Below, one piece after another: positions 17,659-17,982 of a stretch of DNA of 64,000 nucleotides; position 1 is the stretch's first letter; the number at the start of each line of letters is the position of its first letter. The position numbers were made by a program, and so were the translations under genes. Source of the DNA: Octopus vulgaris. Lineage: Eukaryota. The notes beneath the pieces were generated by a model. It searched no databases and was not told the origin of the DNA. It was given only the letters and a program-made list of their open reading frames with translations. The stretch covers positions 114,080,001 to 114,144,000 of the forward strand of contig OX597821.1 in NCBI GenBank assembly GCA_951406725.2. Direction: 5' to 3'.

Positions 17659-17982
17659 TTGCAGCGTGGAAGGTGTTTGTAAGCTATTTAAGAAACACAC
17701 AAAAACCGTTAGAGTCACTTCAACATTTAAATTTAATTTGCCAAAATATTTTCCTCGCTTTGAGACCGCGACCTGTTCACTGACAAAAATATCGTGCTAA
17801 CAGGTCGCGGTCTCAAAGCGACGAAAATATTTTGACAAATTAAATTTAAATGTTGAAGTGAATCTAACGGTTTTTGTGTGTTTCTTAAATGGCTTATAAA
17901 CACCTTCAACGCTGCAACTGTTTTCGTTCCAGCACACGATCTCAGATCAAGTCACTTGCTATGCAAGTACATCTCTGTAACT
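17659..17982. mobile_element. Fold-back insert in (TA)n, Penelope pseudo-LTR-like
   Basis: About 119 bp near-perfect inverted arms 17659-17777 and 17799-17917, hammerhead motif at the inner end, TA repeats on both sides. Confidence 0.7.
17737..17787 (-). ncRNA. Type I hammerhead-like motif, G3-C8 core variant
   Basis: TTTGTCA-GTGAACA-G-GTCGC-GGTCTCAAA-GCGAG-GAAA-ATAT-TT-TGGCAAA: helix I 7 bp, helix II 4 bp (5 bp in the right-arm copy), palindromic AATATT helix III. Confidence 0.65.

What the first reader, a model, noticed from the sequence alone, without database searches (positions are those of the whole stretch)
17659..17982. Second, unrelated G3-C8 hammerhead inside a ~260 bp fold-back
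The minus-strand motif TTTGTCA-GTGAACA-G-GTCGC..GCGAG-GAAA-ATAT-TT-TGGCAAA shares only the GTCAGTGAACAG core with the 28.3 kb family; its helices differ. It has an extra G after A9. The right arm keeps the better-paired helices (GCGAC, TGACAAA) but lost the start of the core at the inversion junction.
Basis: partly seen in the sequence, partly recalled or inferred. Interest (0 to 1): 0.7.

Follow-up and report, generated by a model that had tools for sequence, protein, structure and literature searches.

The report
Swapped-core hammerhead in octopus retroelement
This is one probably disabled copy of an abundant octopus repeat, likely the end piece of a Penelope-type jumping gene, whose hammerhead-shaped RNA motif has two paired core letters swapped (G3-C8) across the family; if the intact form cuts RNA, which is untested, it would be a natural ribozyme variant that standard searches miss.

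Summary
In detail: 119-nt arms (17659-17777, 17799-17917, 6 mismatches) and one complete type I hammerhead layout on the minus strand with a G3-C8 core. It is one copy of a high-copy repeat (9,751 contigs laid in one run). Canonical C3 or G8 did not reach 5% in the three runs with coverage, so the swap is family-wide. An ATG at 17889 opens 31 codons that are the exact N-terminus of two longer Octopus predicted proteins; the left arm ends at codon 10, the right at codon 31. That is the pseudo-LTR plus tail anatomy of Penelope-like elements (PLEs), as are the head-to-head inversion and the (TA)n target. The extra G, palindromic helix III and fold-back are known PLE features. The fold-back junction is rare in the family. 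The one complete core has a private C11.1G hit and is predicted buried in the hairpin, so this locus is probably inactive. New: a family-fixed natural G3-C8 core, also in the 28.3 kb family, not found in print in my searches. Not shown: cleavage, transcription, covariation, or an RT/GIY-YIG domain.

The parts
17659..17798 (-). Left arm: inverted copy of the repeat, from near the family's 5' end (17798) to codon 10 of the ORF (17659); holds the only complete hammerhead layout
17737..17787 (-). Type I hammerhead layout: helix I (7 bp, one U-G), G3-C8 core, extra G after A9, helix II with G10.1-G11.1 mismatch, palindromic 6-nt helix III, predicted cut after U17 (17744)
17774..17780 (-). Swapped core G3 U4 G5 A6 A7 C8 A9; canonical C3 or G8 not seen at 5% or more in X17, X18, X19
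   Evidence: change-type counts and table 3
17754..17754 (-). Private G at position 11.1; C in 81% and U in 16% of X17 depth, G in under 1%
17778..17798 (.). 21-nt unpaired spacer and head-to-head junction at 17798/17799; rare in the family
17799..17917 (+). Right arm: direct copy, 5'-truncated at core A6; keeps C11.1 (17822) and helix I 3' strand
17889..17981 (+). First 31 codons of an ORF; 28 of 31 identical to residues 1-31 of P0001 and 21 of 24 to P0002
17918..17982 (+). 65-nt extension present on the right arm only (tail-like; codons 11-31); family 3' end near 17980
   Evidence: (table 7)
17617..17658 (.). (TA)n-rich left flank, likely the insertion target; no target-site duplication can be read
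17983..18020 (.). (TA)n right flank
28287..28331 (+). Second family with the same G3-C8 core (sister copy at about 27987-28027, minus, reads G3-U8); comparison only

Best explanation
The locus is a head-to-head pair of two truncated copies of an abundant short repeat sitting in a (TA)n microsatellite, likely the pseudo-LTR plus tail of a Penelope-like retroelement, carrying a family-wide G3-C8 hammerhead layout that is predicted to cut only slowly, as a dimer or with protein help, while this particular copy is probably inactive. Shown: the arms, the motif, the family, the fixed swap, the ORF start. Inferred mechanism: the element's endonuclease nicks both strands of the AT-rich target; reverse transcription starts at two internal sites in the first codons of the ORF (near codon 10, giving the left end at 17659, and near codon 31, giving the right end near 17980); both cDNAs run toward the RNA's 5' end, pass the predicted cut site (by 54 and 33 nt, so the templates were uncleaved RNA), stop at different points and are joined head to head. 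The G3-C8 swap keeps the 3-8 Watson-Crick pair and the 2'-OH at position 8, so the family-majority ribozyme would retain partial activity. At this locus any read-through RNA would fold into the 119-bp hairpin instead and would be a double-stranded RNA substrate.
For: Family: 20 of 24 listed runs hold the stretch or part of it, under 6 coded organism labels plus an insect metagenome label, 12 studies; 9,751 contigs laid in X17, 389 in X18; summed depth over the mean depth of 8 listed contigs suggests about 9,000-46,000 copies, an order of magnitude only. Swap fixed: the single C>G place and single G>C place in X17 are 17754 and 17794, not the core; X18 and X19 have C>G only at 17754 and no G>C. 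Helix I position 17741/17835 is dimorphic (G in 43% of X17, 27% of X18 depth) and both alleles pair with U. ORF: ATG 17889 is Met1 of P0001 (Octopus sinensis, 325 aa) and P0002 (O. bimaculoides, 167 aa), which continue 86% identical over 154 aligned columns. Published PLE anatomy matches: pLTR holds the first 12 codons, 22 with the tail, tail on one inverted pLTR only, head-to-head most frequent (PMC3846280); inverted 5'-truncated copies and (TA)n bias (PMC8557442); internal RT start sites make the tail, AT-rich targets, both strands cut and extended, uncleaved RNA is the substrate, engineered C3G/G8C partly restores cleavage (PMC11167929). All 4 hammerhead-like fold-backs I aligned in the window are head-to-head, next to (TA)n, with one longer arm. 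Locus inactivity: helix I pair probability 0.0 in the full minus transcript, hammerhead fold 63 kcal/mol above the hairpin.
Against: No RT or GIY-YIG domain was linked: P0001 residues 1-222 found no longer relative among 563 candidates, no Pfam family, no usable Atlas hit; its C-terminal part matches arginine methyltransferases, so the gene model looks chimeric. The PLE look of that N-terminus rests on motifs recalled and compared by eye. The tail is 65 nt against 30-40 nt reported. The AU-only helix III duplex is marginal (-0.2 kcal/mol) and free cofolding of two copies does not give the hammerhead dimer; even the left arm alone forms helix I with probability 0.02-0.04. Raw-read run X22, with the same species label as the best holder, laid 0 of 12.9 million reads, which a repeat this abundant should not give; unexplained. 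25 of the variant rows were not shown, so A3 or U8 at 5% or more is not excluded. Uniformity among copies reflects the master copy, not selection on each copy.
Confidence: 0.8

Rival explanations
1. PLE-derived as above, but the G3-C8 motif is a dead relic in the whole family: the master copy carried a non-cutting hammerhead and spread anyway because cleavage is not needed for insertion.
For: Hammerhead mutants did not affect PAc insertion in vitro; Naiads spread without canonical hammerheads; weak helix III and poor predicted folding; copies include sequence on both sides of the cut site.
Against: The swap needs two transversions that together restore the pair, the single G8C change lowers the rate 10^5-fold (PMC8495972), and the same core is kept in a second family whose downstream sequence is unalignable; majority alleles keep helices I and II.
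Confidence: 0.35
2. A MITE or fold-back DNA transposon whose inverted repeats happen to contain a hammerhead-like string.
For: A 259-nt inverted repeat in TA-rich DNA; the family's 5' end is 10 of 12 complementary to the stretch where the left arm ends.
Against: Depth across the junction is 0.2% of core depth in X17 and 4.8% in X18, and junction sequences vary; the right end lies 65 nt beyond the inverted repeat and is as well covered as the body; the element carries an ORF start.
Confidence: 0.05
3. A non-LTR retrozyme: a short non-coding unit that spreads through tandem arrays and circular RNAs processed by the hammerhead.
For: Short, high-copy, type I hammerhead with palindromic helix III; retrozymes are proposed to derive from PLE pLTRs (bioRxiv 10.64898/2026.07.22.740005; PMC7229834).
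Against: Loose ends behind 17980 are AT-rich flank, not the element's 5' end (113 contigs in X17); no head-to-tail joint among the 15 of 65 joints shown; the unit ends inside an ORF.
Confidence: 0.08
4. A tRNA-derived SINE, or a chance look-alike of a hammerhead inside an ordinary repeat.
For: Loose resemblance of the helix II loop to a B box (my reading); isolated fold not above shuffles; no Rfam hit.
Against: ARAGORN finds 0 genes in the window; strict descriptor gives 0 G3-C8 hits in 200 simulations; all junction nucleotides other than 3/8 match the hammerhead; ORF start downstream.
Confidence: 0.05

Closest known systems
Minimal/dimeric type I hammerheads in pLTRs of Penelope-like elements (Cervera and de la Pena 2014, PMC4209133)
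   Same: Type I topology, unpaired base between A9 and G10.1, G10.1-C11.1 in the family majority, short palindromic helix III, mostly solo copies, opposite-strand pairs 100-700 bp apart, U at 17 common.
   Different: Core is G3-C8.
Penelope/Poseidon insertions with inverted pLTR and tail (Pen2a_Av, PMC3846280; PAc, PMC11167929)
   Same: Head-to-head inverted copy, tail on one side, pLTR holding the first ORF codons, AT-rich target.
   Different: Tail 65 nt versus 30-40; ORF starts about 57 nt downstream of the cut site rather than at stem II as in PAc; no internal RT-EN body at this locus.
Hydra-clade and Naiad PLEs of Octopus (Craig et al. 2021, PMC8557442)
   Same: (TA)n insertion preference; Hydra-1_Obim has a hammerhead with extra G and U17.
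   Different: All 34 rows of their hammerhead table begin with CTGA; the motifs of this element were not found in that supplement; Naiads lack canonical hammerheads.
Natural U3-A8 hammerheads (Perreault et al. 2011, PMC3088659) and engineered C3G/G8C double mutants
   Same: Position 3-8 pair kept by a double change.
   Different: G3-C8 reported there only as an engineered rescue with partial activity, not as a natural family.
Non-LTR retrozymes (PMC7229834)
   Same: Short high-copy units with type I hammerheads.
   Different: No tandem arrays seen; minimal rather than canonical ribozyme; ends inside an ORF.

Membership tests
Hammerhead ribozyme, type I | Three-way junction with helices I and II flanking U4 G5 A6 N7, A9, G12 A13 A14 A15.1, U16.1, H17 | tested here: met
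   helix II closing pair broken in this copy, intact in 81% of X17 depth
Hammerhead ribozyme, type I | Canonical C3-G8 core pair | tested here: not met
   G3-C8 instead, family-wide; pair kept but reversed
Hammerhead ribozyme, type I | Rfam covariance-model match | tested here: not met
   10 matches, all miRNA hairpin models below gathering score; the canonical neighbour is missed too, so the test has little power
Hammerhead ribozyme, type I | Compensatory changes in helices across copies | tested here: inconclusive
   Only per-position allele shares were available; one pair-keeping dimorphism in helix I, CpG-type decay in helix II
Hammerhead ribozyme, type I | Self-cleavage after H17 | not testable with these tools
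   needs in vitro assay or end-mapping
PLE minimal/dimeric hammerhead | Unpaired base between 9 and 10.1 and palindromic helix III | tested here: met
   extra G 17773; 6-nt palindrome, duplex only -0.2 kcal/mol
Penelope-like element | pLTR with hammerhead followed by the first ORF codons | tested here: met
Penelope-like element | Head-to-head inverted truncated copy with a tail on one side | tested here: met
   tail longer than published
Penelope-like element | Insertion in (TA)n / AT-rich target | tested here: met
   (AT-rich loose ends)
Penelope-like element | ORF with telomerase-like RT and GIY-YIG endonuclease | tested here: inconclusive
   Only the N-terminal 150-222 residues are on record; no RT/EN-bearing relative found; low-confidence helical model
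MITE / fold-back DNA transposon | Family-wide terminal inverted repeats | tested here: not met
   junction rare and variable; one end lies outside the repeat
MITE / fold-back DNA transposon | Target-site duplication | tested here: inconclusive
   both flanks are (TA)n
Non-LTR retrozyme | Tandem head-to-tail arrays | tested here: not met
   AT-rich loose ends at the 3' end; no such joint among those shown; contigs are short, so arrays are not excluded
Non-LTR retrozyme | Circular RNA | not testable with these tools
   contigs cannot show it
tRNA-derived SINE | tRNA-like head with A and B boxes | tested here: not met
   the hairpin does not pair as a T-arm (read from sequence)

The most novel reading that the evidence does not exclude
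Octopus genomes hold a lineage of Penelope-like elements whose hammerhead has naturally and stably reversed the C3-G8 pair to G3-C8, is still active, has been kept in at least two diverged families and has been amplified to the order of ten thousand copies; such ribozymes are invisible to current descriptors, so PLE hammerheads are undercounted and the tuned-down core may be how these elements keep most RNA uncleaved for insertion.
Probability: 0.5. Interest if true: 0.62.

Novelty: new variant of a known kind. Interest (0 to 1): 0.46.

Why it matters
The role of hammerheads in Penelope-like elements is open: they are nearly universal yet dispensable for insertion in vitro. A family that took two transversions to reverse a core pair, where the single G8C change nearly abolishes activity, argues that cleavage (or the fold) was under selection in the master element, and gives a ready natural test case with thousands of copies. 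It also shows a blind spot of descriptors fixed on C3 or U3. The fold-back itself, the extra G and this single copy are ordinary.

Tried and rejected
No whole genome was held, so no copy census. Collection scans found nothing relevant: the 1 viral match lies inside a phage ORF; all 29 metagenome matches to a 19-mer lack the rest of the motif and the element; 0 matches for a 24-mer in prokaryote and viral contigs; 0 of 26 candidates for P0002 in viral contigs. Rfam miRNA hits are generic hairpin matches below gathering scores. Pfam on 36 of 266 candidate window frames, chosen near the fold-backs, gave no RT or GIY-YIG. The 85-aa frame in the spacer of the 28 kb fold-back looked like a GIY-YIG end by recall but found no relative. 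AlphaFold of P0002 from a 2-row alignment was unusable (mean pLDDT 47), so no fold search. The bacterial promoter scan is not informative here. X19/X20 insect-metagenome rows are small shares; X19 holds 6 short contigs, which I do not treat as evidence of habitat or transfer. Lunse et al. 2017 on PLE hammerhead variants was not available, so it may already list G3-C8.

Full report
Observation. The inverted repeat is real: arms 17659-17777 and 17799-17917, 119 nt, 21 nt apart, with 6 differences; the right arm runs on for 65 nt to 17982, and both ends abut (TA)n. On the minus strand the left arm and spacer hold a complete type I hammerhead layout with G3-C8, an extra G after A9, a 5-bp helix II whose closing pair is G-G, a 6-nt palindromic helix III and U at 17. 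The right arm begins at A6. A loose descriptor gave 8 hits in the window against 2.9 in 60 shuffles (G3-C8: 2 against 0.23). A strict descriptor written after the fact gave this hit alone, against 0.01 per 64 kb and 0 G3-C8 hits in 200 simulations. The isolated motif folds as drawn but no better than shuffles (z -0.55). Rfam gives no hammerhead here nor at the canonical-core neighbour.

The family. 20 of 24 listed runs hold the stretch or part of it, under six coded organism labels and an insect-metagenome label. I laid 4 runs at 80% likeness, 5% share: X17 9,751 contigs, X18 389, X19 6, X22 none of 12.9 million reads although it bears the best holder's species label (unexplained; the tool calls it no test). 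Summed contig depth is not a copy number; divided by the mean depth of the 8 listed X17 contigs it suggests 9,000-46,000 copies and about 14 with a junction alignable to this one. Junction depth is 0.2% of core depth in X17 and 4.8% in X18, with many different inserted or missing letters, so fold-backs recur but are not the family's unit. Copies end near 17980 in AT-rich flank (113 X17 contigs) and many continue about 12 shared bases 5' of 17788 before agreement falls (171 contigs, agreement 0.53 over 30 letters).

The core is fixed. Canonical C3 would read as C>G at 17780 and G8 as G>C at 17775 (or C>G at 17801). X17 has one C>G place and one G>C place, listed at 17754 and 17794; X18 and X19 have C>G only at 17754 and no G>C. 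U3 is excluded in X17 the same way; A3 or U8 could hide among the 25 rows not shown. At 11.1, X17 depth is 81% C, 16% U, under 1% G; X18 33% C, 67% U, 0% G: this locus's G is private, and the U share fits CpG decay (inference), which also means many copies have lost this pair. Helix I position 17741/17835 is dimorphic and both alleles pair. Covariation could not be counted.

The retroelement link. An ATG at 17889 opens 31 codons to the element's end. Searching that frame gave 2 hits among 21 candidates: P0001 (source name: Octopus sinensis uncharacterized protein, 325 aa; residues 1-31 28/31 identical) and P0002 (Octopus bimaculoides, 167 aa; 21/24). Both start at the same Met and continue 86% identical over 154 columns. 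So longer copies carry an ORF of which the short element holds only the start; the left arm stops at codon 10, the right at codon 31. This places the window in an octopus genome (inference from these hits and, by recall, its repeats). P0001 residues 223-311 match arginine methyltransferases, probably a chimeric gene model. Residues 1-222 have no Pfam family, no longer relative among 563 candidates, and no usable Atlas or PDB hit. Two motifs in it resemble PLE N-terminal motifs by recall and by eye against published ORFs; this is a lead, not a test. RT and GIY-YIG are therefore not shown.

Comparison with print. PMC3846280 (passages): a rotifer Penelope pLTR holds the first 12 codons, 22 with a 31-bp tail found on one inverted pLTR; head-to-head is the commonest arrangement, explained there by self-priming on an antisense template. 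PMC8557442 (passages; supplement parts 1, 2, 7 of 59 and searches): inverted 5'-truncated copies, 30-40 bp tail, (TA)n bias; 34 of 34 hammerhead rows begin CTGA, 10 with T at the cut site. PMC11167929 (parts 1-2 of 4; supplement search empty): both strands cut and extended, AT-rich targets, two internal RT starts define the tail, cleavage needs protein, C3G/G8C partly rescues, uncleaved RNA is inserted. PMC4209133 (parts 1-2 of 4, supplement parts 1-2 of 3): extra base between 9 and 10.1, G10.1-C11.1, palindromic helix III, opposite-strand pairs, U3-A8 variant; 0 of 56 representatives with G3. PMC3088659 (passages and section 8): natural covariation only to U3-A8. PMC8495972 (passages): G8C lowers the rate 10^5-fold, partly restored by C3G. 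PMC3884650 (passages): engineered G3-C8 mentioned. Also seen: PMC6765202, PMC6155905, PMC7229834 (passages), bioRxiv 10.64898/2026.07.22.740005 (part 1 of 5), PMC13282606 (part 1 of 3; supplement listed, not read). Searches that found no natural G3-C8 hammerhead and no octopus report of one: judged from listings. Lunse et al. 2017 (about PLE hammerhead variants) was seen only as a reference and may bear on novelty, as may bioRxiv supplements and repeat libraries I could not see.

Mechanism. Inferred: nicking of both strands in (TA)n, two reverse transcriptions starting near codons 10 and 31, running inward and joined head to head; self-priming is the published alternative. Both arms extend past the predicted cut (54 and 33 nt), so the templates were uncleaved. 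Two of the six arm differences are alleles shared with other copies, weakly suggesting two templates. The other three hammerhead-like fold-backs I aligned (27.8-28.5, 28.6-28.8, 25.5-25.8 kb) have the same head-to-head, one-arm-longer shape, with swapped and unswapped cores alike. At this locus the ribozyme is predicted off: helix I probability 0.0 and a 63 kcal/mol penalty in the full transcript, 0.02-0.04 for the left arm alone, plus G11.1. The dimer helix III is marginal and free cofolding prefers another pairing, so activity of the intact form would probably need protein help; I put it near even odds.

Relation to the 28.3 kb family. Downstream sequences do not align beyond chance, while the two 28 kb arms do (0 of 500 shuffles). 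Yet both families share the 12-nt core stretch and, via the right arm, 7 nt around G12. Shared ancestry with constraint on the ribozyme is the simpler reading (inference).

Expression. Not shown. X18 is only guessed to be RNA. It has 18 of 46 variant places of the A>G or T>C kind against 4 of 41 in X17 (Fisher p 0.0025), which would fit A-to-I editing, but the runs are different organisms with no matched DNA.

Earlier scan notes list G3-C8 motifs in protist PLEs and phages; they are unchecked, I did not test them, and they are not support. Look-ups by place, by sequence and by a longer word list returned nothing.

Verdict. A real, ordinary PLE-type inverted insertion whose one new feature is a family-fixed G3-C8 hammerhead core: a new variant of a known kind, activity untested. 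Interest 0.46.

Noticed in passing
window 27790-28478: Head-to-head pair of the second swapped-core family (28298 plus G3-C8; 28020 minus G3-U8), about 223-nt spacer, about 50-nt extension on the left arm only; an 85-aa minus frame in the spacer looks like a GIY-YIG end by recall but found no relative.
   Followed up: partly
window 28576-28790 and 54200-54300: Canonical-core hammerhead family, once as a fold-back with overlapping palindromic junction and once solo.
   Followed up: partly
window 25340-25410 and 25518-25800: A further hammerhead-like family with a 10-nt palindromic helix III and decayed cores, including a fold-back around a (TA)n tract.
   Followed up: partly
window 17786-17798 versus 17659-17670 / 17906-17917: The family's 5'-end 12-mer (loose ends) is 10 of 12 complementary to the stretch where the left arm ends; it could close a long-range stem at an RT start site or be a relic inverted end in the master copy. 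Unexplained.
   Followed up: no
run X18 over window 17659-17982: Excess of A>G and T>C places (18 of 46 against 4 of 41 in X17), possibly A-to-I editing; different organisms, no matched DNA.
   Followed up: partly
run X19 over window 17702-17975: An insect metatranscriptome holds 6 short low-depth contigs of this repeat; contamination is the likelier cause, transfer is not excluded.
   Followed up: no
run X22: 0 of 12.9 million raw reads laid although the run has the best holder's species label.
   Followed up: no
P0001 residues 1-222 and 223-311: The Octopus sinensis gene model appears to fuse this element's ORF start to an arginine methyltransferase exon set, probably a mis-annotation.
   Followed up: partly
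window 11946-12534: A 590-nt decayed inverted repeat (68% identity) with no hammerhead hit, a possible old MITE.
   Followed up: no
window 3598-4371, 60472-61335, 62785-63150: Broken frames that by recall resemble a non-LTR retrotransposon C-terminus and a mariner transposase end; no Pfam hit at E 0.1.
   Followed up: no
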